Shown here: positions 1 through 41,000 of the stretch, piece after piece
Numbering within the stretch: position 1 is the stretch's first letter
Layout: each line of letters opens with the position of its first letter
NCBI GenBank assembly: GCA_965237525.1
Contig: CBDEFO010000007.1
Span: forward strand, 224,001-288,000
Reading direction: 5' to 3'
Length of the DNA: 64,000 bases
Source: Candidatus Latescibacterota bacterium
Lineage (GTDB): Bacteria > Latescibacterota > CBDEFO01
Translations under genes and position numbers: made by a program
The notes under the pieces: model-generated
What the model was told of the DNA's origin: nothing
Databases searched by the model: none
What the model saw: the letters and a program-made list of their open reading frames with translations, nothing else

Positions 1-706
1 GCTTCTTATTGCCCGATGCGAAGATCAAGATTTTCAAAGGTTACCGACAGATAGTTCATTATTTCAAATCTCAAAGTCATATGGGTACAACAATGTTCTG
101 ATTGGAGCTTATTTTCCATATTGTAATCTATTCGGGAGTGATTTGACCTATTGAAGAGTGTTCCCACTTTGGGCAAGACTTTCCGTTTTATTACCATTAC
201 CGTTTGCCAAGTTGCTATATGTAGAACATATTGCTCAGAGAGATAACGTTCTGAACTTGTTCAGCGAATATTTGTCAAGGATGAATTCATCACCACATAA
301 TACATTTTTCTTTATTCACTTTGAGATTCCGCACCATCCTTATGTTTTTGATTCTCAGGGATTTGTAAATCAGTATTGGGAAGTGATGATTAAAGGGGGA
401 AGCTATAAAGTCGAAGAAAAATATGTGAAACAGTTAGAGTTTGTTGACAGAAAAGTAGGAGAAATAGTTAAGAAACTGAAGGATGATGATTTGTATGACA
501 AAAGCATGATTATCATTACTTCAGACCATAATGCTTCTGTATGGAGGAAGCATAGTGCAACCAGAGTACCCCTATTTATTAAAGCTCCATTTCAAAAAAG
601 TCAACACCTTGTGAAAAATAAAGTCTATACAATAAATCTCAAAAACTTTTTGTCTTCTTTCTTTGAGTCAAACGTTGTTGACATAAAGGAATTGGAAAGG
701 ATGTAA
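1..706 (+). pseudogene. Sulfatase/alkaline-phosphatase-fold protein, C-terminal part (5' end outside window), with in-frame TGA at 152-154
   Basis: Frame from base 2 reads LLIARCEDQDF...DLTY*RVFPLW...; motifs FFFIHFEIPHHPY and IIITSDH. The paralogue near 16125 has TAT GGA where this copy has TAT TGA. Confidence 0.75.
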
Positions 707-715: not shown

Positions 716-2308
716 ATGAAGAAGTCGCTCGTCATTTATCCCTTTCTGTTCGCTGTATTTCCTATTCTGTCTCTTTTTTCTCATAACATAGAGGAACAGA
801 TATCGATAAATGAAATAGTAGGGCTATTAGCAACTACGACTTTTCTTGCATTTCTGTTGTGGTCGTTGCTGAGTTTTGTTCTTAAGGATAGGCGAAAGGC
901 AGGATTAATCGCCTCTCTTTCCTTATTACTATTTTTTTCATATGGGCGTTTCCATGATGCAATATGGAATTTGGCTGGTCATTCGGAAGTATGGGGATTT
1001 GAGATTGGGAGACATAGATACCATCTCGCTACTTGGGGTGTAATCTTTGCAATTGGCACTTATTTTTCTCTAAGAACGCGCAGAAATTTGAGAAACGTTA
1101 CGTTTTTTCTAAACATAGTTACTACTTCTTTGGTCGCAATTCCTATTATTACCGTGGCTTACGTGCTTGTCTCGTGAGATAAAATAGATTTTGAAAGACA
1201 AATCGATACGTCGCATTTAGAGAGGCCAGATAAGCTTCCGGACATCTACTATATTATTTTGGATGGATACGCAAGAGCGGATATCCTCGAAGAGAACTAC
1301 CAATATGATAATAGTAAGTTCCTGGATTATTTAGTCCAAAAAGGTTTCTATATAGCCAACAAGAGTAGAGCGAATTACCCCCAAACCAGTCTATCAATGG
1401 CGTCTTCTTTGAATTGTACCTATCTGGATGATTTAGCCAATCAGATTGGTGCAGAATATGCTGAGAGATGGCCCTTGCACAGAATGATAGACAACAATAA
1501 TGTCTTTAATTTTCTGAAGCAGTATGGTTATGTATTTGTGCGTCATACTATGTTTGGTACGAAAATAAGGAATGCCGATGATTATGTGATTCTTAATAGG
1601 ACTCCTCCGGGGTCCTTGAGTAGATTCCAGAATATAGTAATAAATACGACTGCCATTCCCGTGTTGCTATGGATTCTGTCCCAGAAATTGTCCTATTATC
1701 AGTATACTCAGTACGAATCACATAGGAAACAGATATTCTATTTCTTTGACTATATTAGTAATTGGACCAAAATGAATTCTCCCGTCTTCGTTTATGCTCA
1801 TATTATGGCCCCTCATCCTCCATTCGTATTTGGAGAAAATGGAAAGGAAATCAATCCCACCGGACCCTTGGTACCTTGGGTGAGTAGAGATGAATTTTTG
1901 AGGAATTATAAAGGGCAACTAATTTATATCAATAAGAAGGTGAAGGAAACAATAGATGACATAATATCTAATGCTCCAGAACCTCCTATTATAATTCTCC
2001 AACCTGATCACGGACCAGCTTCTCTAATTGCCGATATTGATCAGGAACTATCTTTTCTATTGGATCAGGCGAATGAGGGTTGCGTCAAAGCAGCCTTCAA
2101 AGAGAGGATGTCTATATTGAATGCATACTATCTTCCCAATGGGGGTCACGCATATCTATATGATGAGATAACTCCCGTAAACACGTTTAGGATAATATTC
2201 AACCATTACTTTGGTGCGAATTATGAGCTATTAGAGGATGAAAGCTACTTCTCAACCTGGAAATATCCTTATAAGTTCATCAATATAACTGATAAAACTA
2301 ATGGGTGA
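716..2308 (+). pseudogene. Membrane-anchored sulfatase/LTA-synthase-like protein split by in-frame TGA at 1175-1177
   Basis: ORFs 716-1177 (TM helices) and 1259-2308 share one frame. The intervening codons read ...KLPDIYYIILDGYARAD; later motifs HIMAPHPPFVF and QPDHG. Confidence 0.8.
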
Positions 2309-4275: not shown

Positions 4276-5099
4276 CTAAACTCTTCTCTTTCTCAGGGGA
4301 AGGTGAGCAGGTTTATGTCCCATTTTGTATTGAGGCGATTCGATCTGGTCTTTGGCAACTCTAATTATACCAAGAATATGTTGTTGAAGCTCGGCCCTTT
4401 ACCCGAAAGGATAAAGATATTTCACCCCGGAGTGGATATCTCCCTGTTCTACCCCAAAAGCGTGGACAGTGAATTGAAAAAAAGATACAATCTGTCGGGC
4501 AAGAGAATCATACTGACTGTGGGGAGGCTGATTGAGCGTAAGGGGCAAAGAGCAGTTGTAGAGGTGCTTCCAGATATTGTGAATAAAATGCCCGATGTGA
4601 TCTACGTCATTGCGGGAGACGGCCCAGAGAAAGATAATTTACATACTTTGGTCCAGAAACTGGGTTTAGGTCAAAAGGTCGTATTTATCCATGATCCGCC
4701 TTATGAGCTTGCACCGGACGCGCACAATCTATGTGACCTTTTCGTTATGGCGGTCAGTAAAGAGATGCCTGAGACGACGGTAGGGGTAGAGAGCTTCGGG
4801 ATCGTGTTTTCTGAGGCAGGGGCGTGCGGAAAGCCTGTGATCGGGAGCTGGTCTGGAGGGATACCGGATGCTGTGGTGGATGGAGTCACAGGAATCTTGG
4901 TCGATCCTGAGGATCGTCGAGAATTGAAGGGGGCTATCTTATCCTTGCTTTCTGATCCGAAACTGGCGCAAACAATGGGACAAAAAGGGCGGAAGAGGGT
5001 ATTGAACGAACTGACCTGGAAAAAGGTCGTCGGGGAGTTTGATTATGAATTGGAATTGCTGCTAAGTAAGTAGACAGAGCACCTCATTTAGAAAGAGTT

Positions 5100-5171
5100 G
5101 TCAGACAGGAATGTCTGACCCACCTTCCTATATATGTTGGTGGTTGGTAGAACAGACATTCTTGTCTGTTC
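5100..5171. repeat. Divergent pair of GTRG-type REP-like hairpins
   Basis: GTCAGACAGGAATGTCTGACCCACC (5100-5124) and GGTAGAACAGACATTCTTGTCTGTTC (5146-5171). Confidence 0.6.
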
Positions 5172-5193
5172 TAAGCATTCTTTAAATAGATCA

Positions 5194-6399
5194 ATGGACA
5201 AAAGGAAAATTACTCTTATCTACTTTAGCGACTACTGGGACGAACGATGGCGCCGCCGCCAGCAGTTAGCTTACAGATTCGCCCAGCGGGAGGATGTACG
5301 AAAAGTTGTCTGTGTAGAATTTCCCCTACCGTTGACGTCCTTTGCTAAATTCTTGGTCTATAAAGCTGACGTTGAGGCGAGCGCTCGTTGGGAGAGGGTC
5401 ACAGAATCAGGAATGGGACGTTCCATGCTTGACGGAAAGCTGGAAATACTAAGCCCTATCTGTGCTTTTCCCCTTTTCAGGAGGACTCTTCTTTCGAGAC
5501 TGGATAAGGCCTTTTTGAGGATTTTGACAGAGGTTTTGATAAGACGAGCGATAAGCGACATTGAGGACAAATCTTCGATCCTCTTCTGGGCAAGTCATCC
5601 TTTTGCCGCCGATTACATAGGGAAATTCAACGAAGCGATGATTTGCTACGATTGTACCGAGAAGTTTAGTGAGTTCGATTTTTGGGTGACCCTCAGAAAT
5701 GAAGTCGAAGAAAAGGACAGCCTGCTTACTCAGAGGGCAGATCTGATTTTTGTACAGGCTGAACCTTATCTTGTTGAGAAAAAGTCCGTCAATCCTAAGA
5801 CATTTTTGATCCCTAACGCCGTTGACTACGATCTTTTCCAAAACTGCCTGGATATGCCAGAGCCATCAGACTTGAAGGGCATCAAGAGACCTATCTTAGG
5901 CTATGTAGGAAGCATCAACAGTCGTATGGACTTTGAGCTTTTGAGGAAAACGGCGCAGGTCTATAAAGATTGGTCGCTCGTCTTCATAGGTGATGTCAGC
6001 GACAGTTCCCTCATAAAGCCGATAGATGGCTTAAAAAATGATTACTTTTTAGGAGAAAAGCCTTATAATATATTACCGAGCTATCTGAAGGAATTTAATG
6101 TCTGTCTAATGCCCTATAGTATTAACCTTATGCAGAGCCCACTCAAGCTTTTCGATTATCTTGCCTCTGGGAAGCCTGTCGTCTCGACAGACATACCGGG
6201 TCTTCGGAACTTTTCAGATGTCATATTCGTATCTAAAACCGAAGATGAGTTTATAAAAAATATAGGGATAGCCGCAGATGATAACAATCCTTCATCGGTA
6301 CTAAGGCGGAAAAGGCGGGCAAAGGACAATTCGTGGGATGTCAGGGAGGAACAGGTATGGGACATCATTAAGAGGGAGTTGTCTTCAAAGGTGCAGTAG
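5194..6399 (+). CDS. GT-B glycosyltransferase (GT4/TuaH-like)
   Basis: W..RRQQLA, YDCTE, IPNAVDY, GYVGSI, SPLKLFDYLASGKPVV. Start taken at MDKRK (5194) because the upstream extension overlaps the REP pair. Confidence 0.85.
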   Translation: MDKRKITLIYFSDYWDERWRRRQQLAYRFAQREDVRKVVCVEFPLPLTSFAKFLVYKADVEASARWERVTESGMGRSMLDGKLEILSPICAFPLFRRTLLSRLDKAFLRILTEVLIRRAISDIEDKSSILFWASHPFAADYIGKFNEAMICYDCTEKFSEFDFWVTLRNEVEEKDSLLTQRADLIFVQAEPYLVEKKSVNPKTFLIPNAVDYDLFQNCLDMPEPSDLKGIKRPILGYVGSINSRMDFELLRKTAQVYKDWSLVFIGDVSDSSLIKPIDGLKNDYFLGEKPYNILPSYLKEFNVCLMPYSINLMQSPLKLFDYLASGKPVVSTDIPGLRNFSDVIFVSKTEDEFIKNIGIAADDNNPSSVLRRKRRAKDNSWDVREEQVWDIIKRELSSKVQ

Positions 6400-6410
6400 G
6401 GGGCAACAGG

Positions 6411-8792
6411 GTGTCAAATTACAAAGTAGTTATATTTATCAGCAGTCTATCATCTATAACGACAGGCGGCATGAGATATTCTGTTGAGGTGTATAAATAT
6501 CTGAAGCGGAGCGCAGTATCCGTCAACGTAATCAAATTAGAGGAAATGCCGATCCTCATTAAAAGATTACCCTCTTTTTGAATCTAACCCTTACCGATTT
6601 CTGGTCTGTTTGCAGCTTCTGTCTTTGAAGCTGGACAGGAATAGAGGACTTGTACTGCCCCCCAGGAAAGCGACACCAATTAAGCAACCTGGGGTAGTAG
6701 ATAAAATTGTTTTCTCCACTCTTCCGGGGTCTTATATCCCAGGGATGAATGAAGCCTGTTCAAAGGATTCAAACTTGTGAAGCCAAACACACTCTTGCTT
6801 GAGGGTCCTGAAAAAACGCTCTACAACACCGTTCCAATCGGGCTTACCACTTGGTATGTATTCCTGACGAATTCCCCAATATTCGGTACTCGCCAAATAG
6901 GCCCGAGCCAAAAAGATGGAACCATTGTCAGAGCGCAAAGTGAGACCCTGGGGGACAACCTCCTTGGAAGTGTATCGAGAGATCACGGCCCGATCCAGGG
7001 CATCTGTGGCCTCCAGTGCCCTCCCTTTTCGACTAAAACGATACCCAGGAACCTCCCGACTCCCGTTGTCCACCACCGCAATAAGAGGACACCAACCGTC
7101 TTCCCCACAATAGATCTTGGGTCAAGTCAGCCGACCAGAGACTGTCAGGACGATCCATCACAGAACGCTTCTGGGCAACCTGTGGCCCCTTTCTCCCGGG
7201 GTCCCCGATTGATTCTATCGGGGATTCCACAGCTTACACTGCCACCCCTTAAGCTTCATTATCCTATGAACCTTCTTGATGTTGACACATGCCCCTTCCT
7301 TGAAACGAAGATGCGCCCAAACCCGCCTGTGACCAAATGCCTCTTCTTGGTCGAGTATCCCTCGAACACGAAAAGCAAGCTGTTCATCTATCACAGACTC
7401 TTCGACAGAAGAACTGACACCTCTATCCCTAAGCCTATACAGAGTCGAACGATGCAAACCCAAAGCCAAAGCTACCACCTTACGGGAATAGCCTCGACCC
7501 AAAAACCGCCCACTCAAGGCAACCGCTTCGTTTTTTTTAGACGGGCTACCTCCTCGAGTATCTCCAACTGGAGGGTTAACTGCCCTACCTTACGCTCCAA
7601 CCGGCTGACCTCCCGCTCCTTCGGATCCTTGCGACCATGCCGAGACTTGCAGACTCTCCTGCCCTCCTTCTAAGAAACTATCACGCCAAGCATACGCCTG
7701 TGACTGGCTAATTCCATTCTTCCGACACACCTCTGATACATCCGCTCCTTTCAAAACAGCCAACACCACCTCTACCTTACGGGTCGCCGTCCAGCGCTTA
7801 CCATCTTTCACTTCGGGGCTTGACAATTTGACCTCCCTTCTCAAACCCCAATTTGCGAAATATTTGTCGCTCTGTCAAGGGGAGCGGTATGGACTTATCC
7901 TATTTGAGGATTATCACTTTCATCCGAGAGTGTTTCTATTTAATCTGTTTGTAAAAACTTTTTTCAAAAGCGTAAGTGCTCTATCTACAGTACAGTTGTC
8001 CTCCTTCTATCATTCTGCTTTGCGATATAGCGCGGCTAAAAAGATAGATGAATTTATTGTCAGGATATTTTTCAGCCAGTTGGATAAGATATTAGCCATC
8101 AGCGATAACACGAAAAATGAAGTGCTGTTGCTGAGGATCGAGCGCTCTAAGGCCAAGAGGATCTACTGCGCTTACGAGGATTTGCCTTGGAGGACATCGC
8201 CCAAAAGCCAAAATGGACGCAAGAGGTTAAGATAGACCTCCTCTTTATGAGGAGGAGCCACGCTGACAAGGGGCTCGAATATCTATTGGAGGTAGTCGCT
8301 CAGTTTGGGGATGATTTTGTCTTAAATATAGTGGGCGACATCGATCACGATCTGAGTTACTACAAGAAACTAACTGAAATTATTGGGAAGCACAATATAA
8401 TGGGGAAGATCTTTTTCCACGTGCAAGTAGATGATAGAAGCAAGCTTAAACGATTCTATGAAAGGTCAGATGTTTTTGTCTTGCCTTCAATTGTCGAAGG
8501 AATCGGTGTTGTTATTTTGGAAGCGATGTCAGCCGGTCGTCCCATAGTCGCCACAAACGTGGGAGACATCCCAGAGTTCGTAAAAGACGAATACAACGGC
8601 ATCCTTATGCCTCCGAGGGATGCGTCCTTTCTCGCGAACGCTACAAATTCTCTGATATGTTCTCCTTCTATGAGAAAGCAATATGGTACTAATGGTTTCA
8701 AATACTGTCAAAACGTTCGAGATCTTCATTCCTGGGATGGAATCTGTAGGGGAATGCATGACATTCCTAACCGATTGGTTGATGCTGCTTAG
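6411..8792 (+). pseudogene. GT4 glycosyltransferase with several frameshifts and an IS3-family insertion
   Basis: Colinear paralogue of 17716-18855. Frameshifts near 6575 and 8185; IS at 6651-7891; FVLPSIVEGIGVVILEAMSAGRP. Confidence 0.85.
6651..7891 (-). mobile_element. Degenerate IS3-family element (orfA about 7590-7844; orfB fragments 7215-7517, 7033-7230, 6732-7076)
   Basis: HTH-type orfA (RWTATRKVEVVL..VSEVCRKNGIS); integrase core LRSDNGSIF and NGVVERFFRTLKQE; A-run near 7531-7538 at the orfA/B junction; imperfect IRs; duplicated (G)GACT flanks. Confidence 0.8.
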
Positions 8793-8918
8793 AAGGAAGG
8801 TAGACATAGCATCGGATAATCCACTCTAGAAGATGCACTCCCAAACTTTGATTCGGAGATTAAAGGGTATCATACTAACATTTATTAGAATGTTCTCAAT
8901 CTAAAGGAGGAAATCACC

Positions 8919-9143
8919 ATGAAATATTTCACATGCTTGATAAGGACACTTACTGTTCTTGCTTTATTTTATTTGATCTTCCCTGAGAAGGCGTATGCCT
9001 ATATGGATATGGGAAGTCTCAGCTACATTCTTCAGCTGATTATAGCTGCTTTAGTTGGGATATTGTTGACAACTAAGATAGTATGGCATAGGATTAGATT
9101 CTTCTTCAAGAAGTTATTCTCCAGAGAGGAATACCACGAATAA
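8919..9143 (+). CDS. Small signal-peptide/TM protein of the AY(L/I)DPG(T/S)GS-like type
   Basis: RBS AAGGAGG at about 8904; AYAYMDMGSLSYILQLIIAALVG followed by a basic tail. Confidence 0.7.
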   Translation: MKYFTCLIRTLTVLALFYLIFPEKAYAYMDMGSLSYILQLIIAALVGILLTTKIVWHRIRFFFKKLFSREEYHE

Positions 9144-9238
9144 GCTGAAGACTAGCGGAAATGTCCCAAGCTCGTTTTGAATACCCCTAAAAGAATGTAG
9201 TTCTTGCAACGCTCAATTTTGTCAACATCTTAACAATC

Positions 9239-10411
9239 ATGGCACATATAACAGCCAGGAAGCCTAATGTTATCGCGCTTTTGTTAAGAGAAATCGCGGA
9301 CTCTTACCGGTTTTTTCGGGAAATTCCAAAAACAGAAAAGATGATAGTTTTCTATGCCGAACACAAAGGCTATTATCCCAACTTCGAAGGGCTTATTGAG
9401 GAATTGATCGGTAAGTACGAACAGACTTTGTGCTATATCACATCGGACCCCAATGATCCAATTCTGCAAACATCAGAGTTGAGAATAAGGACTTTTTATT
9501 TGAATAAGTTACTACCTTTCTTCATGGTATTTATCAATTGCAAGGTATTTGTCATGACATTGACCGACCTTAATCAATCCTATCTCAAGCGCTCAATCAA
9601 TCCGGTGCACTACGTTTACGTATTCCATGCCCTTGTCAGCACTCACATGATGTATCGATATGGTGCTTTTGACCATTACGATGCGATTTTGTGTGTGGGT
9701 CCACATCATGTCAGGGAAATCCGCAAGTGCGAAGAACTCAATAGTCTTCCGCCGAAGAGGCTTGTGGAGGCAGGTTATTATCGACTGGAGCGAATTTACA
9801 GGGAATATCAGAAATATTCCCGAAAGGAGTCTTCCTCAGGTGATAAGCGAACTGTCCTGATCGCACCTTCTTGGGGAACTGACAACGTTTTGGAGTCTTG
9901 CGGCGAGCGTCTTGCCGATATTCTTTTGAAGGCGGGTTACGAGGTGATTGTTCGGCCTCACCCGGAAACTGGACGACGTTCTCCTGAACTCATGACTTTG
10001 TTTGATTCCAAATTCGGCCGTAACCCGAATTTTACTTTGGAGAGGTCTGTTGCCACAGATGACTCATTGCTGCGGGCCGATGTCCTGATATGTGACTGTT
10101 CGGGGATTGCCCTTGAATACGCTTTTGGCACCGAGAGACCGGTTTTATTTTTGGATGTTCCCATTAAGATCCAAAATCGGAGATTTGAAGAACTGGGAAT
10201 CGAACCGTTAGAGTTGCTTCTCCGATCAGAGATCGGCGTGATCGTCTCTCGGGAGAGGTTAGGTACCGTTCCTGGAGTTATCTCGAACTTAGTGGCGAAT
10301 AGTGGAGCGTACAGAAAACGTATAGTCGAGTTGAGAGATCAGAACGTCTATGCATTCGGACGCTCCTCGGAGATTGGCGCTCAATACATCATCGATCTTG
10401 TCAATGAGTAA
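9239..10411 (+). CDS. CDP-glycerol glycerophosphotransferase (TagB/TagF)-family protein
   Basis: YVFHALVS, EAGYYRLE, LIAPSWG, VRPHP, ADVLICDCSGIALEYAFGTERPVLF. Confidence 0.8.
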   Translation: MAHITARKPNVIALLLREIADSYRFFREIPKTEKMIVFYAEHKGYYPNFEGLIEELIGKYEQTLCYITSDPNDPILQTSELRIRTFYLNKLLPFFMVFINCKVFVMTLTDLNQSYLKRSINPVHYVYVFHALVSTHMMYRYGAFDHYDAILCVGPHHVREIRKCEELNSLPPKRLVEAGYYRLERIYREYQKYSRKESSSGDKRTVLIAPSWGTDNVLESCGERLADILLKAGYEVIVRPHPETGRRSPELMTLFDSKFGRNPNFTLERSVATDDSLLRADVLICDCSGIALEYAFGTERPVLFLDVPIKIQNRRFEELGIEPLELLLRSEIGVIVSRERLGTVPGVISNLVANSGAYRKRIVELRDQNVYAFGRSSEIGAQYIIDLVNE

Positions 10412-10433
10412 CATGCTTATTGCAGAATAAGGC

Positions 10434-10462
10434 TTCACAAAACGTGTGGGAAAAGTTATACT
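10434..10462 (+). promoter_or_regulatory. Putative sigma70 promoter upstream of pepM
   Basis: TTCACA-N17-TATACT, ending 42 bp before the ATG. Confidence 0.4.
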
Positions 10463-10504
10463 TTGGCTGTAGCATAGGCTACTTTTAGCATAGGGAATTT
10501 AGAC

Positions 10505-12112
10505 ATGACTAAAGCTAAGAAATTTCGCCAACTATTACAATCAAAGGACCTTGAATTCATTTGTGAGGTTCACAACGGAATGAGTGCCAAAATTGTTGAG
10601 GAGGCAGGTTTTAAAGCCATATGGGGAAGTGGCCTGACGATGTCCGCAGCAATAGGTGTTCGTGACAGTAATGAAGCCAGCTGGACACAGATTCTGGAAA
10701 TAGTTGAATTCATAAGTGATGCTACGTCGATACCCCTGTTACTAGATGCCGATACGGGTTATGGGAACTTCAACAACGTACGCCGACTGGTAAGAAAGCT
10801 GGAACAACGAGACATTGCTGCTGTATGTATTGAAGATAAACTATTCCCCAAAAAGAACAGCTATATTCAAAGTGAACGCCAGCCTTTAGCCGATATCGAG
10901 GAGTTTTCCGGTAAAATTAAGGCAGCAAAAGATACCCAGAACAATCCGGATTTCTCCGTTATTGCACGTGTTGAAGCTTTCATTGCAGGTTGGGGACTCG
11001 GTGAAGCACTCAGACGTGCGGATGCTTACCATAAAGCAGGTGCAGATGTGATCTTGATTCACAGTAAACTTTCCAGGCCTGATGAGGTCCTGGCTTTTAA
11101 GAAAAAATGGGGTGACAGTTGTCCTGTTGTCATTGTACCCACTACATATTATACGACGCATACGGATGTCTTTCGCCAGGCCGGTTTTAGCGCAGTAATT
11201 TGGGCAATTATGATTTTGCGTAGTGCAATTAAGGCTATGAAAGAAACCGCAACTCAACTAAAGGAAGAAGAATCATTGGTCGATATTGAGGACGATATGG
11301 CATCGGTTGCAGAAGTGTTTCGGTTGCAGGACGCTGACGAACTCGAGATGGCCGAGAAGCTATATCTTCCAGAAGGTGGTGAGGATACTGATTGCGTAAT
11401 CTTGGCCGCTTCTCAAGGTGCTGAACTCGGTGTCTTAACTAAGGATAAGCCAAAAACTTTGCTTGAAATTTCTGGCAGGCCTCTCTTGTATAAACAGGTG
11501 GATATGCTCAATGAGATCGGAATTAAGGACATTACAGTGGTGCGCGGATTTCATAAGGAGAAGATCGATTCGTCCAATCTTCATTATGTCGATAACGATA
11601 ACTACGCCACGACTCAAGAGGTCTTTTCTCTCTTTAAAGGTATTCAAGGTATTGAGGGCAGAACGCTAATTTCATACGGGGATATTCTTTATAAAAAGTA
11701 TGTACCGACCCTCCTACTTGAAACGGAGGGAGATTTTGTACTGGCTGTCGATTCTGACTGGAAGTCCGGCTACAACAAAGATCGTTATACAGATTTTGTT
11801 TCATGTGACTGTCCAGATCAAAAAGAGCTATTTGATCAAAAGGTAATTTTGACTGGTGCGGGTAGCTCTATGCAGGAAGAGAATATTTGTGGTGAGTGGA
11901 TCGGTCTGTTCAAACTATCAGAATATGGTCTATCAGTTCTACAGGAACTTTTAGGTGGTTTGTTTAGGGATAATAGAGTTCATCAGTTGCGAATGACTGA
12001 GTTATTCAACGAACTCATTTCTAGAGATCACGAAATTCGGGTTGTGTATATTCGTGGTCATTGGCTAGATGTAGATGACATTATAGATATCAGTAACGCA
12101 AGCAGGTTTTAA
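10505..12112 (+). CDS. pepM: Phosphoenolpyruvate mutase fused to a C-terminal cytidylyltransferase (PntC-like) domain
   Basis: PepM signature EDKxxxxxNS ([10 protein letters not shown]), [21 protein letters not shown]-terminal [29 protein letters not shown]. Confidence 0.95.
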
Positions 12113-12129
12113 TAAGATTTGCAGGAATA

Positions 12130-13299
12130 ATGATCCAAGCGGAAGAATTTATAAAGCCAGCTTTGGCGAAAGGCTATAGTTTTTGGACGGGTGTCCCGTG
12201 TTCTTTCTTGACACCCTTCATTAACTATGTAATCCAAAGCTCCGAATTGACTTATGTTGGGAGCAGCAGTGAGGGTGAGGCAGTTGGCATTGCCATAGGT
12301 GCTCACTTGGCGGGACAAAAGACAGTAGTAATTTGTCAGAACTCAGGACTCGGCAATATGGTCAATCCGTTGACCAGTCTGAACTATCCATTTCGCATCC
12401 CAACTTTTCTGATAGTCACTCATCGCGGCGCGTCTGGACTAGAGGACGAACCCCAACACGCCCTTATGGGTTTAATCACCGCGGATATTTTAACTACTTT
12501 GCGAATTCCATGGAAAGTATTCCGTGGTCAAGCCGAAGATATCGAGGGTGTAATCGATGAGGCAGATGAGTACATGACTACGAAAGGCCTTCCATACGCT
12601 TTGATCATGGAAAAGGGAACGGTTGCACCCTATCCGCTCAATGAAAAGATGACTTATAGACCATTTTTAGGAGTTGAACCCAAGGGAGAGTTTATTGTTG
12701 CAGATGATAAAAGGATGCCGCGACGCGATGCGATTAAGATCATCAAAAGTCTTCTTGTTAATGGTGAATTAATGGTTGCTACGACGGGCAAGGTAGGGAG
12801 AGAGTTGTTTGCCCTGGGGCATAGTCCCAATCAGATTTATGTTGTTGGTGGTATGGGATGTGCCTCCGCCATTGGGTTGGGTCTGGGCTTGTGTCAAAAA
12901 GAGCGCAAAGTTGTTGTCCTAGATGGGGACGGCGCAGCTCTGATGAAAATGGGGGTGTTCGCCTCGATAGGCCACTATCATCCGGAAAACTTATTTCATA
13001 TCATTTTGGATAATGAAGCTCACGAGTCTACAGGTGGACAATCAACGGTTTCTGGAAGCATTGATTTTGCTCAAGTCGCATCGGCTTGTACTTACAATGC
13101 GATATTTCGTTGTGACACCGAGGCTGCTTTGAAGGAAATGGTAAAGATTGCTCTTGATATAGAAGGGCCAGCCATGATGCATGTCAAAGTTGCAGTAGGT
13201 TCCGATCCAAATTTGGGGCGTCCGACTTTGACGCCAGTTCAAGTAAAAGAGCAATTAATGAGGCATATTGGTCAATGGTCAAAATTAACAAAGCCGTAA
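12130..13299 (+). CDS. ppd: Phosphonopyruvate decarboxylase
   Basis: TGVPCSFL, QNSGLGNMVNPLTSL, DEPQH, TTGKVGREL, DGDGAALM, NEAHESTGGQ. Confidence 0.95.
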   Translation: MIQAEEFIKPALAKGYSFWTGVPCSFLTPFINYVIQSSELTYVGSSSEGEAVGIAIGAHLAGQKTVVICQNSGLGNMVNPLTSLNYPFRIPTFLIVTHRGASGLEDEPQHALMGLITADILTTLRIPWKVFRGQAEDIEGVIDEADEYMTTKGLPYALIMEKGTVAPYPLNEKMTYRPFLGVEPKGEFIVADDKRMPRRDAIKIIKSLLVNGELMVATTGKVGRELFALGHSPNQIYVVGGMGCASAIGLGLGLCQKERKVVVLDGDGAALMKMGVFASIGHYHPENLFHIILDNEAHESTGGQSTVSGSIDFAQVASACTYNAIFRCDTEAALKEMVKIALDIEGPAMMHVKVAVGSDPNLGRPTLTPVQVKEQLMRHIGQWSKLTKP

Positions 13300-14000
13300 T
13301 TGTTGCAGCAGGCACGTCATCACGACTCTACCCATTAAGCCTAAACCTACCCAAGGGCTTACTGGAAATTGCAGGCAAGACGATATTGGGGCGGTCTGTG
13401 CGGCTATTGTCTGAAAATGGTATCAAAGAGATCTTGATCGTCGTAGGGTTCCAGAGGGATATGATCCAAAAGGCTTTGGAACCATTCGCAGCGGACGTTC
13501 CGCGTATCCACTACCAATTTAATCCGTTTTTTGCTGAAACGAACAATATGGGTTCATTATGGTTTGCTAAAGAATGGATAAAAGGAGATTCATTCCTCTA
13601 TCTTTATGGTGACCTTGTTTACGATCCTGAATTGCTGCGTTCATTCATGAGTGGAACTTATGCAGACGCGGCATTGTCAGTAGATTGTGGGTCCACTGAT
13701 GAGGAAGCGATGAAGGTTCGAGTTAAAGATGGACGTTTTATTGAATCGAGTAAGGATATCCCGCTCAATGAAGCATTCGGGGAATGGATAGGAATAGCCA
13801 TATTTAATCGTCCACGTGTATTATTTAATAAGGTAGAAATTCTTTTAGAGCAAAAACACTTCCAAGCTTACGACACATTGGCTTTTACGGAGATGGCTCA
13901 TGAAGGGAACTGTTTTTCCGTAATTCCAACCAATGGGGGTTCTTGGGTCGAAATAGACTTTAGGTCAGACCTGGATCGAGCGAGGAATCTATTTCCATGA
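13275..14000 (+). CDS. LicC/PntC-family (phosphocholine/phosphonate) cytidylyltransferase
   Basis: AVIVAAGTSSRL..PKGLL, NPFFAETNN, YGDLVY, EEAMKV, GEWIGI, WVEIDF. Confidence 0.85.
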   Translation: MVKINKAVIVAAGTSSRLYPLSLNLPKGLLEIAGKTILGRSVRLLSENGIKEILIVVGFQRDMIQKALEPFAADVPRIHYQFNPFFAETNNMGSLWFAKEWIKGDSFLYLYGDLVYDPELLRSFMSGTYADAALSVDCGSTDEEAMKVRVKDGRFIESSKDIPLNEAFGEWIGIAIFNRPRVLFNKVEILLEQKHFQAYDTLAFTEMAHEGNCFSVIPTNGGSWVEIDFRSDLDRARNLFP

Positions 14001-15145
14001 TCCAAAGCTACTCAAATCCTGTAAAGATAAAACTTGGGCGTGGTTCATTAAGGGAACTTCCAAAACTTTTGGCAAATCGAACTGCCCTTCTGGTAACAAC
14101 ACCAGGCATGGTAAAAAGAGGTGTTGTTACCAGAGTACAGGAGTTGTGTCGAGCGAAGCCTTTGCACGTTACTGCCGAAGTTACACCTAATCCGACAATT
14201 GCCTCGATCAATAGATGCTTTCGTCAGGTGAAAAACTATAATTATGATGTAATAATTGGCTTGGGTGGAGGAAGCGTACTAGATACAGCAAAGGGAGTTG
14301 CCTCACTCTCCGGCGGTTCTGTGGATCAGAACTGGCTTGATGCCCATTTACGCCATGATAGGGAGAAGCCCAAAGTTCTCAGATCAAACCCGATTATAGC
14401 TATACCAACGACCTCCGGAACCGGTTCAGAAGTGACACAATGGGCAAGTGTCTGGGATGATGTATCAGGGACCAAATATTCACTTTCTGATGAAGGGTTA
14501 TACCCGGAATGGGCCTTGCTTGACTCAGAGTTAACGGATTTATTGCCTTATGAAACTACGCTCTTTACTGCTCTTGATGCATTATCTCAGGCTATGGAAG
14601 CAATTTGGAACAAAAATGCCAATCCAGTTTCTGACGTGTTGGCTACAAAAGCAATTGCTATTTCTATATCTGTTTTGGCTGATGATTTTAAGGAGAAATA
14701 TGCTCGTCAAGAGGTGCGCGAAAAGCTACAACAAGCAAGCCTGTTAACAGGATTAGCCTTTAGCAATACTAAAACTGCCTTGGCACATTCGATCTCTTAT
14801 CCACTTACATCTAAGCTAAAAATACCCCATGGCCTAGCCTGTAGCTTTACTCTACCTCAAATTATGCGAATTAATTACAAACAAGATAAGGAAAGAGTAG
14901 GAATTATTATTCAAGCCCTTGGGTGTTCTTTACTGGATGCAGCAGTAGAAGCACTATACAGAGTATTTGTGAATTTAGGCATAACGGAATATCTTCGGCA
15001 GTTTATTGTACATACATCTGACATGACTACATTAGATGCTGAGTTTATAGCACCAGGACGGGCAGAGAACAACATTACTTATGTCTCACAAAGTGATGCT
15101 ATAGAGATTTTGCGATCAGCATTATCACGCTTAGCAATCAATTGA
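13997..15145 (+). CDS. Group III Fe-dependent alcohol dehydrogenase, probable phosphonoacetaldehyde reductase
   Basis: GGGSVLDTAK, PTTSGTGSEVTQWASVWD, AFSNTKTALAHSISY, IPHGLAC; translationally coupled (ATGA) inside the pepM-ppd operon. Confidence 0.85.
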   Translation: MIQSYSNPVKIKLGRGSLRELPKLLANRTALLVTTPGMVKRGVVTRVQELCRAKPLHVTAEVTPNPTIASINRCFRQVKNYNYDVIIGLGGGSVLDTAKGVASLSGGSVDQNWLDAHLRHDREKPKVLRSNPIIAIPTTSGTGSEVTQWASVWDDVSGTKYSLSDEGLYPEWALLDSELTDLLPYETTLFTALDALSQAMEAIWNKNANPVSDVLATKAIAISISVLADDFKEKYARQEVREKLQQASLLTGLAFSNTKTALAHSISYPLTSKLKIPHGLACSFTLPQIMRINYKQDKERVGIIIQALGCSLLDAAVEALYRVFVNLGITEYLRQFIVHTSDMTTLDAEFIAPGRAENNITYVSQSDAIEILRSALSRLAIN

Positions 15146-15215
15146 AATATTCCTGATGAAATAGGAATAGGCAATTGCACAAAGAAATCCCAGCCTAAGT
15201 GGGGCATTGAAATAG

Positions 15216-16676
15216 ATGGATGAAAGGAGAAACGAAGTCCAGGCTGTGCTTAAGGACTTATATTACGCATTGATAATTGTGAGCCTCTTTTTCGGCCGCC
15301 ACTTCCTAATTGTTAACACGCCGACTAATGCGTTCTACAATGCCCAGACCTTGAAGGAATTTGTTCTTGTTTGTGTCTGCTTTTTCTAGATTGCCGTAAT
15401 CATATCTTTCGTCTTTTCGGCGGCAAGAAGGTTTCTCACAAAGCACTACAGGGAAGATCGTGTTTACTACTTTATATATATCGATACTTCCCTTGTTAGA
15501 TTTTATCGTTTTAATGGTTTTGCCGTATGATGGAGCAAAGTTTATAAATCGTGAATTTACAGGTTTCATATTTCCTTACTTTGCACTTTTCTATATTCCG
15601 GCAACTATTCTAATTTCTTTCAAATATCAAATAGAAAAATATGGAGAGAAAATTATCCGAATAGTTCCAGTTGTTTGTATAGTGATTATATATCATGCGA
15701 TACCTCGGTCATTTAGTAAAAATATCATAGAGAATGAGTTTATTCATTCAGACAAACCTTCTACGCCGATACATTTGCTAATTTTCGATGGGATGTCCCC
15801 TGAGGTTCTCAATGACCCAGATCTAAAGCATCTATTTCCAAATATCAGCTCATTCTTACGTAATAACAGCTTTGTTTTTGAGGATGCATATTCGCCAGGG
15901 GCATGGACAATAAGATCGATACCTAAGTTAATAACAGGTCTACAATATGATGGTCGATATAGCTAGAGGATTTACTCTATCTTATTGCCGAATCGGAAGA
16001 TGACGATTACGAGGATCTGCCAGTAAAAGGTTCACTATTTCAAATCTCAGAGTCATATGGGTACAACAATATTCTGATCGGGGGTTATTTGCCGTATTGC
16101 GATTTATTTGGCAAAGATTTGACTTATGGAATACAGTATTCCAAATATTCAAGATTTTATCAATTGTTGCCTCGCCGATTTACTGATTTTCTCTATATAC
16201 AGTATCTCTACGAAAGAGATGTTTTTCTACAGTCCTTTGACCAATATTTGTTAAAGATCGATTCATGTCCAAAGAATACATTCTTTTTTATTCATTTTCT
16301 CATTCCGCACCAACCTTTAATTTTTGATTCTCAGGGATTTGCACAGATTTATTGGGAAAGAACTCATAGAGGAGAAGGATGGTGTACACCGAAGTTTAGA
16401 GAGAGATATGTGGAGCAGCTCATGTTTGTTGACAAGAAAGTAGGAGAAATACTTGGAAAACTGAAAGCTCACAACCTGTATGACAAGAGCATGATTATTA
16501 TTACTTCAGACCATAACTATCTAGAATATGATAGGCTAAGAATACCTTTATTCATCAAGGTTCCTTTTCAAGAAAGTCAACATGTCGTTAGAGAGAAAGT
16601 CCATATCGTAAATTTTGGAAAGTTTCTATCTTCACTTCTTGAATCAAACGTGGTTCATATACAGAGGTTGCAATAG
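15216..16676 (+). pseudogene. Membrane sulfatase-fold protein with a stop and frameshifts
   Basis: ATG at 15216, TAG near 15387, frame changes near 15450 and 15962. Motifs IHLLIFDG, SPGAWTIRSIP, FFFIHFLIPHQP, IIITSDH. Paralogue of 1-706. Confidence 0.75.
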
Positions 16677-16746
16677 AAGAGTATCTTTTCAAAGTAGCAA
16701 GGATTTGGCTGAGTCCGCAAATTTCAACCAAAAATAGGGCTTGCCC

Positions 16747-17665
16747 AATACTAAGCCCTATCTGTGCTTTTCCCTTTTTCAGGAGGACTCTTCTTTCGAG
16801 ACTGGATAGGGCCTTTTTGAGGATATTGACAGAGGTTTTGATAAGACGAGCGATAAGCGACATTGAGGATAAATCTTCGATCCTCTTCTGTGCAAGTCAT
16901 CCTTTTGCCGCCGATTACGTAGAGAAATTCAACGAAGCGATGATTTGCTACGACTGCACCGAAAAGTTTACTGAGTTCGACTTTTGGGTGACCCTTAGAA
17001 AAGAAGTCGAAGAAAAGGACAGTCTTCTGACTCAAAGAGCCCATCAGATCTTTACACAGACCCAACCTCATCTTGTTGAGAAGAGGTCCGATAATCCTAA
17101 TGTATTTTTGATCCCCAACGCCGTTGACTACGATCTTTTCCAAAACTGCCTGGATATGCCAGAGCCATCAGACTTGAAGGGCATCAAGAGACCTATCTTG
17201 GGCTATGTAGGTAGCATCAACTCCCGTTTCGACTTTGAGCTTATAAGAAAGACAGCACAAGTCTATAAAGATTGGTCGCTCGTCTTCATAGGTGATGCCA
17301 GCGACAGTTCGGTAATAAAGTCAGTAGAGGACTTAAGAAATGTTTACTTTTTGGGGGAAAAGCTTTATAATATAGTACCGAGCTATCTGAAGGAGTTTAG
17401 TGTCTGTCTGATGCCCTATATTAACCTTACTTGTTTGGAGAGCCCGACAAAGCTTTTCGATTATCTTGCTTCTGGAAAGCCTGTCGTCTCGACGGATATA
17501 CCGGGCGTTAGGGACTTTGCAGATGTCGTATTCGTATCTAAAACCGAAGATGAGTTTATAACAAACATAGGCTTAGCCGCAGGTGATAATAATCCTTTGT
17601 CAGTCCTGAAGCGAAAAGAGCGCGCAAGAGAAAATTCGTGGGATGTCAGGGAAAACCAGATATAG
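16747..17665 (+). pseudogene. 5'-truncated duplicate of the 5194-6399 glycosyltransferase
   Basis: Similarity to 5445 onward starts abruptly at 16747 (AATACTAAGCCC). TAG at 17663-17665 replaces the TGG of copy 1. Confidence 0.8.
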
Positions 17666-17715
17666 GACATTATTAAAAAGGAGTTATCTTCAGCACTTTA
17701 CAAGGAGATGACAGG

Positions 17716-18855
17716 GTGTCAAGTTACAGCGTAGTAATGTTTGTTAGCAGCCTATCATCTATAACGACTGGCAGCATGAGATATTCTGTTGAGGTGTATA
17801 AATATCTGAAGCGGAGCGCAGTATCCGTAAGCGTAATCAATTTAGAGGAAATGCCGATCCTCATTAAAAGATGTCCCCTCTTCTTGAACTTGATCCTTAC
17901 CAACTTCTGGTTTATCCGGAGACTCCTGTCGCTGAGATTAGACAGAAACAGCAACGTCATCCTCTTTGAGGATTACCATTTTCATCCGAGGCTCTTTCTG
18001 TTTAATCTTCTTGTAAAGACTTACTTCAAGAAGGCAAGTGTCCTATCTACTGCGCACCATTTGTCCCTATCCCATCATCCTGCTTTGCGATCCAATACAG
18101 CTAAAAAGATAGATGAGTTTATTATCAGGATATTCTTCAAACAATCAGATAAGATATTGGTCAACAGCGATAACACGAAAAACGAAGTGCTGTCGCTCGG
18201 GATTGAGCCGTCTAAGGTTGAGAAGATTTATATCTCTCACGAGGATATGTTCTTAGGGTACGTCAGCCAGAAGCCCGAATGCTCACAGGATGGGAGGCTG
18301 AACCTTCTCTTTGTGGGAAGGTGCCACGCTGATAAGGGGCTCGAATATCTGTTGGAGGCAATTGGGCTGCTCGGAGACGATATTGTGTTGAATATCGTGG
18401 GCGACACCTGTCACGATCCGGAATACTACAAGAAACTAGTTGAGATCGTACGAAAACTCAAAATAGAGGAGAAAATCTTTTTCCACGGATATATCGATAA
18501 GGAGGAACTGAAGCAATTCTGCCAAGGGGCTGACATCTTTGTCCTGCCGTCAGTTGTCGAAGGATTCGGAGCTGTTCTTCTGGAAGTGATGTCTGCCGGT
18601 CTTCCCATAGTCGCTTCAAACGTGGGAGGTATTCCGGAGCTGATTAAAGACGGATACAACGGTGTTCTTGTGCCTCCGAAAGAGGGGTCCTCTCTGGCGA
18701 ACGCTATAAATTCTCTGATACGTTCTCCTTCTTTGAGAAAGCAGTATGGTATGAATGGATACGAATACTTCCGGAACTTTCGGGATCTTCATTCCTGGGA
18801 TAGCACCTGCAAGAAAATACACGACATTCTCAGCACAATGGCTGATGCTGCCTAA
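17716..18855 (+). CDS. GT4 glycosyltransferase
   Basis: FVGRCHADKG, FVLPSVVEGFGAVLLEVMSAGLP. Confidence 0.9.
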   Translation: MSSYSVVMFVSSLSSITTGSMRYSVEVYKYLKRSAVSVSVINLEEMPILIKRCPLFLNLILTNFWFIRRLLSLRLDRNSNVILFEDYHFHPRLFLFNLLVKTYFKKASVLSTAHHLSLSHHPALRSNTAKKIDEFIIRIFFKQSDKILVNSDNTKNEVLSLGIEPSKVEKIYISHEDMFLGYVSQKPECSQDGRLNLLFVGRCHADKGLEYLLEAIGLLGDDIVLNIVGDTCHDPEYYKKLVEIVRKLKIEEKIFFHGYIDKEELKQFCQGADIFVLPSVVEGFGAVLLEVMSAGLPIVASNVGGIPELIKDGYNGVLVPPKEGSSLANAINSLIRSPSLRKQYGMNGYEYFRNFRDLHSWDSTCKKIHDILSTMADAA

Positions 18856-18924
18856 ATGAGCGTAGACATAGCAAATGATCCTTGAGATAGATAAGTGTGA
18901 AATGTTAGATAGGAGGGACTCCTG

Positions 18925-39704: not shown

Positions 39705-41000
39705 ATGTGGATACTATACGATCTTATCTTTCTTCTTGTTTTGATCTTAGCCTTGCCGTATATCCTGCTGATGGCGCTTTTAGGTCGAGAGAGGATGGCA
39801 GAAAGGCTGGGGTTAAAGTTGCCAACGGATATAGATGGGTTGTCCGATAAGAAGCTTATATGGGTACACGCGGCGTCTGTGGGCGAAATATCGGCTGCAA
39901 CTGCACTTGTAAGTGAGATAAAGAAGGTTCGTCCCGAATTGTACGTTGTAGTCTCTACGACTACGACGACGGGTCTTTATAGGGCAAAAGAGATAGTGTA
40001 TGGGGGAGACCTTTTCATGGTCGCCCCTTTTGACTTTTCCCCCATAGTCAACCGCGTCGTATACAGGTTAAGGCCAATGGCTCTGGTCATTATAGAGACT
40101 GAGATATGGCCCAATTTGATAAGGGCAGCTAAAAGGAGAGGATCTCAGGTCGCTATAGTTAGCGGCAGGTTGTCCCGGAAGGGATTCTTGCGGTACAGGA
40201 TAGCCGGAGGATGGTTTTCAAAGATACTGGCTTTGATAGACCTAGTCTGCGTTCAGTCGGAAGGGGACAAGGAGAGATTCGCCGCTCTGGGCGCGGATCA
40301 AAAGAGGATCAAGCTTACGGGCAATCTGAAGATAGATAGCCTGAAAGTAACATCAGATGCGAGAGGAAAAAAGTGCATCAGGGAAGCTTTCGGGTTTTCG
40401 GAAGATGGGAAAGTGTTGATAGCTGGCAGCACGAGACGGGGCGAGGAAGATATTATAGTGCGGGTCTTTGAGAAACTTTGCCGCCGATTCGACGATCTGT
40501 CCTTGATAATTGCTCCTCGCCATCTGGATAGGTTGAAAGAGGTTGAAGAAATAGTTCAAACATACAACCTTCCTTACCTAAGGTGGGCCGACGTGGTGCG
40601 GTCACTTTGTGTTGAAGGAAGTAACTCTCATGCGAAATATAGCGTTATAATTCTAGATACAGTGGGAGAGCTTGCGTCCGTGTACCGGTTGGCGGATGTG
40701 GCATTTGTAGGAGGAAGTCTGATGCCACTTGGGGGGCATAACCCGTTAGAGCCAGCGGCTGTGGGCATTCCTACCATATTCGGGAAGTACATGGAGCAGG
40801 AGGGAGCATCTATGCTTCTTGAGAGCGGAGCAGCGCTGAAGGTAGAGGATGAAGATGAACTCCTGATAGCCTTGGAGCGTCTCTTCGAGGATGAGGAAGA
40901 GCGGGAAAGGAGAGGAAGAGCCGGGATAGATGCCATTTCAAAAGCGCAGGGCGTCGCCCAAAGGACACTGGAACTTTTAGTGGCAAGAGGGATAATATAA
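39705..41000 (+). CDS. waaA: Kdo transferase
   Basis: IWVHAASVGE, STTTTTG, IETEIWPN, GNLKID, AGSTRRGEE, APRHLDR, FVGGSL..GGHNPLEPA. Confidence 0.95.
   Translation: MWILYDLIFLLVLILALPYILLMALLGRERMAERLGLKLPTDIDGLSDKKLIWVHAASVGEISAATALVSEIKKVRPELYVVVSTTTTTGLYRAKEIVYGGDLFMVAPFDFSPIVNRVVYRLRPMALVIIETEIWPNLIRAAKRRGSQVAIVSGRLSRKGFLRYRIAGGWFSKILALIDLVCVQSEGDKERFAALGADQKRIKLTGNLKIDSLKVTSDARGKKCIREAFGFSEDGKVLIAGSTRRGEEDIIVRVFEKLCRRFDDLSLIIAPRHLDRLKEVEEIVQTYNLPYLRWADVVRSLCVEGSNSHAKYSVIILDTVGELASVYRLADVAFVGGSLMPLGGHNPLEPAAVGIPTIFGKYMEQEGASMLLESGAALKVEDEDELLIALERLFEDEEERERRGRAGIDAISKAQGVAQRTLELLVARGII

What the first reader, a model, noticed from the sequence alone, without database searches (positions are those of the whole stretch)
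8919..15145. Intact 2-hydroxyethylphosphonate cassette inside a surface-glycan locus
Seen: PepM with the EDKxxxxxNS signature, Ppd and a coupled Fe-ADH, with no aminotransferase in the cassette. Established: PepM + Ppd + group III ADH (PhpC/FomC-type) converts PEP to phosphonoacetaldehyde and then 2-HEP, and PntC-type cytidylyltransferases activate phosphonates as CMP conjugates. Inference: this waaA-bearing Gram-negative organism decorates its LPS or capsule with HEP. All six genes are open while neighbours on both sides are pseudogenes, which suggests selection on this block.
Basis: partly seen in the sequence, partly recalled or inferred. Interest (0 to 1): 0.8.

Follow-up and report, generated by a model that had tools for sequence, protein, structure and literature searches.

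The report
Decaying phosphonate cell-coat gene cassette
Six open genes in a bacterial surface-sugar locus are predicted to make the carbon-phosphorus compound 2-hydroxyethylphosphonate and likely attach it to the cell envelope, a known kind of pathway, but close strains and a sister species carry broken copies, so it is likely being lost rather than kept.

Summary
The six open genes are real: a 74-aa YxDPG membrane protein, a TagF-like transferase, PepM fused to a nucleotidyltransferase, Ppd, a PntC-like cytidylyltransferase and an Fe-ADH with the PhpC substrate residues. No AEP transaminase reaches its family cut-off in the genome, so CMP-HEP is the likely product: a known branch. The locus is Wzc/Wzy/Wzx-type; waaA lies 24.5 kb away.

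The selection claim fails. Past purifying selection is ordinary (dN/dS 0.18 vs 0.26 background). About 13% of sampled genes are broken, so five open genes by chance is about 0.5. Three of six laid runs, from three studies, carry a 53-codon pepM deletion that removes a catalytic His. The sister species has a ppd frameshift. The window's own PepM has Ile where 119 of 119 homologues have Asn. All three putative second-step transferases, wzc and wzy are broken here, and the local wzx is gone. Different lineages broke different steps.

This scan already reported the TagF-like attachment module at least four times on other DNA. New here are the parallel loss and a synthesis-to-uptake swap in relatives.

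The parts
8919..9143 (+). 74-aa membrane protein: signal-like segment ending AYA, YxDPG-type motif (YMDMG here), one TM helix, basic tail; likely membrane anchor or partner of the TagF-like enzyme
   Evidence: a relative is present in 52 of 80 TagF-like loci, is fused to the TagF N-terminus in L109 (43), and also heads a 725-aa ORF elsewhere in the genome; no Pfam or NCBIfam match
9239..10411 (+). TagF-like CDP/CMP-alcohol phosphotransferase, GT-B fold; candidate CMP-HEP transferase
   Evidence: PF04464 33.9 bits vs cut-off 22.1 (7); model pLDDT 88.7 (85); Foldseek top hit TagF 3L7K, then capsule polymerases 8QOY/8A0M and TarL
10505..12112 (+). PepM (aa 1-290) fused to a PF12804 nucleotidyltransferase domain; catalytic residues kept; derived Asn235Ile; codons 161-213 deleted in other strains
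12130..13299 (+). Phosphonopyruvate decarboxylase (Ppd); frameshifted near window 12917-12921 in the sister species
   Evidence: TIGR03297 407.5 vs 312.5 (8)
13275..14000 (+). Stand-alone PntC/LicC-like cytidylyltransferase; derived His111Tyr at the column of Tde-PntC Glu104
   Evidence: best PDB match 6PD1, E 2.6e-13 (15)
13997..15145 (+). Group III metal-dependent ADH of PhpC type (K160, T260, Y268, R355; metal ligands D194, Q198, H264, H278)
15216..16676 (+). Broken five-TM + sulfatase-fold gene (putative second-step phosphoester transferase); open, 480 aa, in the sister species
716..2308 (+). Second five-TM + sulfatase-fold gene, split by a TGA at 1175 (sense codon in run X2)
1..706 (+). 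3' part of a third sulfatase-fold gene, paralogue of 15216-16676, split by a TGA at 152 (sense codon in run X2)
6408..8792 (+). Left neighbour: GT4 gene cut by an IS3-type element (about 6648-7892) and frameshifted
39705..41000 (+). waaA-type Kdo transferase at the far end of the locus, 24.5 kb from the cassette
   Evidence: PF04413 (78)

Best explanation
The cassette is a predicted CMP-2-hydroxyethylphosphonate (CMP-HEP) pathway whose TagF-like enzyme likely transferred HEP onto an envelope glycan or lipid carrier in the ancestor, and it is likely now being lost, because related lineages carry breaks at different steps. Steps: (1) PepM and Ppd give phosphonoacetaldehyde (established chemistry; family membership shown). 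(2) The PhpC-type ADH reduces it to HEP (inferred from residues). (3) The stand-alone PntC, more probably than the fused domain, makes CMP-HEP (inferred). (4) The TagF-like enzyme, likely held at the inner membrane by the YxDPG protein, moves HEP-phosphonyl to a sugar or lipid hydroxyl (inferred from fold and context). (5) Five-TM sulfatase-fold proteins would pass it on outside the cytoplasm, as LtaS/EptA do (weakly inferred). In the window's strain, step 5 and the locus's own export genes are broken (shown), and PepM and PntC carry derived changes at conserved sites (shown; effect untested). Surface HEP is therefore probably reduced or absent.
For: Family scores. PhpC residues K157/T256/Y264/R349 of PMC13576164 section 2.8 map to K160/T260/Y268/R355, kept in 120, 120, 120 and 119 of 120 aligned ADHs; Tyr, not the Phe of sulfoacetaldehyde reductases. 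No AEP transaminase over cut-off in the genome; the best class V hit prefers other families and sits beside a glutamine-synthetase-like gene. Among 80 TagF-like loci: pepM 29, ppd 20, ADH 18, AEP transaminase 0, small protein 52, sulfatase-fold membrane gene 38. Loss: a 159-bp pepM deletion in X2, X5 and X6 and in database protein P0243, which also has D83N; it removes H186, the His190 equivalent. A 1-nt ppd deletion in G001, also seen in an X4 contig. N235 is Asn in 119 of 119 homologues. All three sulfatase-fold genes are broken in G000. wzc is split, wzy is IS-cut and the local wzx is absent. The genome holds 137 copies of one IS, and 20 of 157 sampled orthologues are broken. Strain X2 versus the window: 12 of 14 coding changes in the cassette are non-synonymous, against 3.9 synonymous expected if neutral.
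Against: All catalytic residues named in the papers I read are present in the window's PepM, ADH and PntC. I found no paper on the role of Asn235. Between-species dN/dS is 0.18, at the lower quartile of background. The ADH is below the TIGR03405 cut-off and has Gln for one metal His (115 of 120 have His), although Gln also occurs in other pepM-linked ADHs and in TauF. 46 of 80 TagF-like loci show no pepM, ppd or ADH in the stretch held, and some pair the gene with a TagD-like enzyme and a GlpT-like transporter, so the donor may differ across the family. No LtaS or EptA structure was hit by sequence. G000 has four other Wzx-family genes that could export an acceptor. No expression or chemical data exist.
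Confidence: 0.6

Rival explanations
1. One reading: the cassette is active and kept by selection in this strain, and decorates LPS or capsule with HEP; the TagF-like enzyme alone is enough for attachment.
For: Six open, tightly packed genes; catalytic residues kept; dN/dS 0.18; about 10 of 23 other locus genes are broken by my reading, which gives 0.03 for six open genes; lpxC and waaA are present; the undeleted pepM is also seen in run X7.
Against: The 0.03 is post hoc, and the same locus has other runs of six or more open genes; at the genome rate the chance is 0.44-0.51. There are knock-outs in three other studies' runs and in the sister species, derived N235I and H111Y, and broken second-step and export genes.
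Confidence: 0.22
2. HEP is made, but the TagF-like enzyme takes another donor such as CDP-glycerol, or HEP is converted further (for example to methylphosphonate) or ends as a lipid head group rather than on the glycan.
For: The fold is closest to CDP-glycerol/ribitol polymerases; TagD-like plus GlpT-like partners occur in L077, L080 and L085; two nucleotidyltransferase domains could serve two substrates.
Against: The gene order tagF-pepM-ppd-pntC-adh recurs exactly in L056, L057 and L065; PhnC/PhnD phosphonate uptake genes sit in TagF-like loci L049 and L087; no ORF of MPnS size with both HTH_3 and Cupin_2 hits turned up in the genome, a weak test.
Confidence: 0.13
3. The product is AEP, made by a distal transaminase, and the ADH does something else.
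For: One class V aminotransferase scores 183 bits on TIGR03301 (29); characterised PntCs prefer AEP.
Against: It is far below cut-off (360.8 and 400.8), scores higher on glyoxylate and pyridoxamine aminotransferase models, and is on another contig; 0 of 80 TagF-like loci hold an AEP transaminase; the PntC lacks the amine-contacting Glu104.
Confidence: 0.05

Closest known systems
Ppm-Ppd-PhpC ('HEP') branch of phosphonate biosynthesis, Li and Horsman 2022 (PMC8942020; abstract, introduction and passages seen)
   Same: Ppm + Ppd + Fe-ADH (PF00465) with no AEP transaminase; this class is 8.5% of 434 neighbourhoods and includes the HEP exopolysaccharide of Stackebrandtia nassauensis and the Nitrosopumilus cluster.
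   Different: Here the cluster carries a TagF-like gene, a YxDPG protein and five-TM sulfatase-fold genes; 'glycerophosphotransferase' and 'PF04464' occur 0 times in that paper's main text. The cassette is decaying.
Phosphonyl tailoring (Pnt) pathway, Rice et al. 2019 (PMC6697681; parts 2-3 of 8, Discussion and passages seen)
   Same: Ppm fused to PF12804 (32.9% of Ppm proteins) plus a nearby PntC; best PDB match is Tde1415 (6PD1); Arg and Lys of the consensus are kept in the stand-alone gene.
   Different: The characterised PntCs activate AEP and sit with LicD-like or glycosyl transferases; here the predicted substrate is HEP, Glu104 is replaced, and the candidate transferase is TagF-like.
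PhpC-type phosphonoacetaldehyde reductase / HEP dehydrogenase (PMC13576164; abstract, sections 2.1 and 2.8 seen) and sulfoacetaldehyde reductase 6JKO/6JKP
   Same: Same fold family; Lys, Thr, Tyr and Arg substrate residues present at matching spacing.
   Different: Second metal ligand is Gln as in the sulfoacetaldehyde reductase, not His; context is biosynthetic (no phnX over cut-off).
Early fosfomycin steps (Fom1 CMP-HEP; passage in PMC6697681; FomC recalled)
   Same: CMP-HEP as predicted intermediate.
   Different: Fom1 has an N-terminal PF01467 domain, here a C-terminal PF12804; no antibiotic tailoring genes in the cassette.
TagF/TarL and TagF-like capsule polymerases (PDB 3L7K, 8VA1, 8QOY, 8A0M)
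   Same: GT-B fold, top Foldseek ranks, PF04464 over cut-off.
   Different: 12-16% identity, TM-score 0.5-0.6; donor and acceptor unknown; diderm host.

Membership tests
PEP mutase (PepM) | EDKX5NS motif and TIGR02320 cut-off | tested here: met
PEP mutase (PepM) | Mussel D58, D85, D87, E114, N122, R159, H190 equivalents | tested here: met
   D54, D81, D83, E110, N118, R155, H186 (residues from the PMC7916636 passage)
PEP mutase (PepM) | Asn of the W-A-N segment, invariant among close homologues (not a published diagnostic) | tested here: not met
   Ile235 in the window; Asn in 119 of 119
Phosphonopyruvate decarboxylase | TIGR03297 cut-off, both TPP domains | tested here: met
PhpC-type PnAA reductase | K157, T256, Y264, R349 substrate residues | tested here: met
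   mapped by spacing from the metal ligands, not by alignment to the PhpC sequence
PhpC-type PnAA reductase | TIGR03405 cut-off 423.7 | tested here: not met
   324.2, still the best family by a wide margin; the L057 cluster ADH scores 321.6
PhpC-type PnAA reductase | Asp-His-His-His metal site | tested here: inconclusive
   Asp-Gln-His-His; Gln in 5 of 120 close homologues and in 7 of 11 further TagF-locus ADHs with the site visible
PhpC-type PnAA reductase | Tree with PhpC/FomC; enzyme activity | not testable with these tools
   no reference sequence came from a tool; PDB search gave none
PntC cytidylyltransferase | PF12804, near ppm, GXG(T/S)RX4-8PK with Arg15 and Lys25 | tested here: met
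   stand-alone gene keeps Arg and Lys, second Gly is Ser as in related cassettes; the pepM-fused domain lacks the consensus Arg
PntC cytidylyltransferase | Phosphonate preference | not testable with these tools
   needs assay
HEP branch (Ppm+Ppd+PhpC, no AEPT) | No competing AEP transaminase | tested here: met
   genome 96.6% complete
TagF-like phosphotransferase | PF04464 and TagF fold | tested here: met
TagF-like phosphotransferase | Two catalytic His and the CDP-binding motifs | tested here: inconclusive
   H130, PSWG, RPHP(H241) and DxSG are invariant or nearly so in 43 sequences; the mapping to TagF residues is recalled, not aligned
LtaS/EptA-like transferase (flanking genes) | Five TM helices plus alkaline-phosphatase-superfamily domain without the sulfatase C/SxPxR motif | tested here: inconclusive
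   PF00884, five predicted TM, motif in 0 of 31; no LtaS/EptA hit in PDB; single-sequence model failed
Wzc/Wzy/Wzx capsule or O-glycan locus | Co-polymerase/kinase, Wzy_C protein, flippase | tested here: met
   open in G001; split, IS-cut and absent in G000
Methylphosphonate (MPnS) pathway | MPnS/HEPD gene | tested here: inconclusive
   none in the cassette; the genome test used only Pfam HTH_3 and Cupin_2

The most novel reading that the evidence does not exclude
The TagF-like family is the missing CMP-phosphonate transferase of bacterial envelopes. It forms a fixed attachment chassis with a YxDPG membrane anchor and a five-TM sulfatase-fold relay, and its donor supply can be swapped between de novo synthesis and uptake, as seen in six loci where pepM-to-adh was replaced by a transporter plus cytidylyltransferase. 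In this IS-rich lineage the phosphonate coat has been knocked out at least three times independently, possibly because losing it is favoured.
Probability: 0.3. Interest if true: 0.68.

Novelty: new member of a known kind. Interest (0 to 1): 0.36.

Why it matters
The HEP-making core is ordinary. Two things give it some value. First, how phosphonates get from a CMP conjugate onto a cell surface is still open, and the TagF-like protein is a soluble-looking, testable candidate for that step. Second, the case shows that an open pepM cassette with the diagnostic motif is not evidence of current phosphonate production. That matters for surveys that count producers by pepM, as PMC8931226 does.

Tried and rejected
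Selection read from intact frames: rejected. Flanking pseudogenes as long-read errors: rejected. A distal AEP transaminase: rejected. A catabolic role for the ADH: no phnX over cut-off, although that model passed cut-off in none of the 14 control genomes either. Gln198 as a sign of decay: rejected, it is shared with G001 and other pepM-linked ADHs. A first, rough breakage count (40 of 193) was replaced by a stricter one (20 of 157 scored of 204 queries; 24 without orthologue, 16 multicopy and 7 partial left out). Promoter scan: 20 sites vs 15.2 +/- 4.0 in shuffles, uninformative. Single-sequence fold of the sulfatase-fold protein: pLDDT 39, not used. A1 profile against PDB: no sequence-level hit. 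ESM Atlas for the small protein: only unnamed clusters. The PepM tree was a quick tree with an open backbone and gives no donor. No RNA holder was listed, so nothing can be said on expression. Literature searches found no paper on a TagF-like phosphonate transferase or on pepM in Latescibacterota; the library lacks most subscription papers, and Yu 2013 and Metcalf 2012 were not held.
Full report
OBSERVATION. The six genes are there and open: a 74-aa ORF (8919-9143), a PF04464 gene (9239-10411), PepM with a C-terminal PF12804 domain (10505-12112), Ppd (12130-13299), a stand-alone PF12804 gene (13275-14000) and an Fe-ADH (13997-15145). PepM has [10 protein letters not shown] at residue 110. PepM and Ppd pass their NCBIfam cut-offs; the ADH's best family is TIGR03405 but it stays below cut-off. 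The genome (G000, 4.58 Mb, 96.6% complete) has a same-genus relative, G001, with an 89% identical PepM. The tool's record title for that stretch (L025) reads Candidatus Latescibacterota MAG. PepM passes cut-off in 7 of 168 genomes of the phylum; the TagF-like family is in 2 of 168, G000 and G001. Cassette GC is 0.43 against about 0.49 for the genome. Horizontal gain is a reasonable inference, but the tree gave no donor.

CHEMISTRY. PepM keeps the equivalents of mussel D58, D85, D87, E114, N122, R159 and H190 (residue roles from a passage of PMC7916636). PMC13576164 section 2.8 names K157, T256, Y264 and R349 as the modelled HEP-binding residues of PhpC, and Tyr264 as strictly conserved in PhpC but Phe in sulfoacetaldehyde reductases. 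The window's ADH has K160, T260, Y268 and R355 at matching spacing, kept in 120, 120, 120 and 119 of the 120 listed best hits of 7165. The two other Fe-ADHs of the genome lack the Tyr. One metal ligand is Gln198 (His in 115 of 120), as in the sulfoacetaldehyde reductase, in G001 and in other pepM-linked ADHs. No AEP transaminase reaches cut-off; the best class V hit prefers other models and lies on another contig. The stand-alone nucleotidyltransferase matches Tde-PntC best and keeps the Arg and Lys that PMC6697681 shows to be needed; the fused domain lacks the consensus Arg. CMP-HEP is therefore the likely product. This is a described class: 8.5% of 434 ppm neighbourhoods (PMC8942020), and Ppm-PF12804 fusions are 32.9% of Ppm proteins. 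I did not read the supplements of these papers; their alignments may bear on the residue tests.

ATTACHMENT. The PF04464 protein folds with pLDDT 88.7; its top structural matches are TagF, TagF-like capsule polymerases and TarL. A relative of the small protein is present in 52 of 80, a five-TM sulfatase-fold gene in 38, pepM in 29, ppd in 20, an ADH in 18 and an AEP transaminase in 0. The order tagF-pepM-ppd-pntC-adh-sulfatase-fold recurs in L056, L057 and L065. In L109 the small protein is fused to the TagF N-terminus, which suggests a membrane anchor; binding was not tested. In six related loci (L058, L060, L061, L064, L067, L074) about 4.4 kb from inside pepM to near the end of adh is replaced by an inverted GlpT/UhpC-family transporter and a nucleotidyltransferase. 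L049 and L087 carry PhnD-type genes. The transferase thus keeps its place while the donor supply changes. Against a strict phosphonate role: 46 of 80 loci show no pepM, ppd or ADH in the stretch held, and some have TagD-like partners. The sulfatase-fold proteins have five predicted TM helices and lack the C/SxPxR motif (0 of 31). Calling them LtaS/EptA-like is inference: PDB searches gave no such hit and the model failed. Earlier reports of this scan describe the same module in four other genomes. Those are AI notes, not support. The YidC-like part they mention was not found among the ORFs scanned here.

WHICH GLYCAN. The locus begins about 14 kb before the window with a Wzz/GNVR/kinase (Wzc-like) gene and a Wzy_C gene; G001 adds a Wzx flippase. 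waaA lies 24.5 kb downstream, and lpxC is present elsewhere. A Wzx/Wzy capsule or O-glycan is the most likely ancestral acceptor; LPS core is not singled out.

SELECTION. Against G001 the five enzyme genes have pooled dN/dS 0.18; the background of 136 orthologues is 0.26 pooled, quartiles 0.18-0.31. The block was under ordinary purifying selection in the past. Its dS (0.34) is four times the background median (0.086), which suggests exchange by recombination (inference). The present looks different. G000 holds 137, 52 and 14 long copies of three IS elements. Of 157 scored orthologues, 20 are broken in G000; of 130, 9 are broken in G001. Five or six open genes then have a chance of 0.51 or 0.44. 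At the locus's own rate (about 10 of 23 broken, my reading) it is 0.03-0.06, but that is post hoc and other runs of six or more open genes exist in the locus.

I laid 6 of the 12 holder runs. X2, X5 and X6, from three studies, carry a 159-bp in-frame deletion (joint 10983 to 11143). It removes codons 161-213 of PepM, including H186 and 22 other highly conserved residues. Database protein P0243 shows the same deletion plus D83N. X1 and X7, from one study that may be the window's source, have the undeleted allele; X4 did not settle it for this species. G001 has a 1-nt deletion in ppd, also seen in a depth-6 contig of X4, which may be its source. In G001 the flanking GT4 and sulfatase-fold genes are open, the opposite of the window's pattern. 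The window's PepM has Ile235 where 119 of 119 homologues, G001, X2 and X6 have Asn; I found no paper on its role. Its PntC has a derived Tyr111 at the column of Tde Glu104, His in G001 and in five related cassettes. All three sulfatase-fold genes are broken in G000, two by single stops that are sense codons in X2. wzc is split, wzy is IS-cut and the local wzx is absent, although four other Wzx-family genes exist. Between X2 and the window, 12 of 14 listed coding changes in the cassette are non-synonymous (15 of 16 differences were shown). That fits neutrality (3.9 synonymous expected, p = 0.2) and differs from the between-species ratio (Fisher p = 0.002). Recent polymorphism always looks less purified, so this alone is weak. 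In the flanks 17 of 17 are non-synonymous (p = 0.002), unexplained and not tested genome-wide.

VERDICT. A real HEP cassette of a known kind, with a plausible but untested attachment module that the scan has met before. The best reading is an ancestral envelope-decoration pathway now being lost in parallel: at pepM in some strains, at ppd in the sister species, and at the second-step and export genes (perhaps also PepM) in the window's strain. Host association is suggested by the IS load and by holder runs filed under four coded organism labels, but it is not shown. My odds: HEP chemistry 0.85; TagF-like as the transferase 0.55; no working surface decoration in this strain 0.65. Interest 0.36.

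Noticed in passing
window 54-688, 5445-6644, 7897-8811 vs 16030-16664, 16747-17951, 17959-18873: A sulfatase-fold/GT/GT4 block is duplicated on both sides of the cassette at 70-86% identity.
   Followed up: partly
window 1-19746, run X2: 17 of 17 listed coding differences in flanking genes are non-synonymous (5.2 synonymous expected; p = 0.002), including a new stop at 19154 in the methyltransferase; this may mean loss of the locus is favoured.
   Followed up: partly
L058, L060, L061, L064, L067, L074: The pepM-to-adh block is replaced by an inverted GlpT/UhpC-family transporter plus nucleotidyltransferase, leaving a pepM stub and in most an adh stub.
   Followed up: partly
G000:C8:987629-989803 (-), L143: The YxDPG anchor segment also starts a 725-aa ORF beside genes that look like sulfate adenylyltransferase and APS kinase (names from recall).
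   Followed up: no
window 41073-42650 (-): A 525-aa SecY-family protein with an extra C-terminal part; not aligned at this place in G001.
   Followed up: no
window 37012-39438: An 808-aa secreted-looking protein with no Pfam match, just upstream of waaA, 91% identical in G001.
   Followed up: no
window 29776-32675: Open GHMP kinase, SIS isomerase, HAD phosphatase and transaldolase-family genes, like a heptose pathway.
   Followed up: no
window 2754-4280, 20447-21973, 28203-29729, 60596-62121: Four copies of one DUF772/DDE transposase element in the window, 137 long copies in the genome.
   Followed up: partly
L020:12540-19880 (G001): The sister locus has a different middle: methyltransferases, a GT9, an ACP-like gene and a 561-aa ORF with no Pfam match.
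   Followed up: no
L115-L118 (G130, G117, G145, G141): Other phylum members have a distant PepM with a degenerate EDKX5NS motif and no ppd hit in the 13-20 kb fetched.
   Followed up: no
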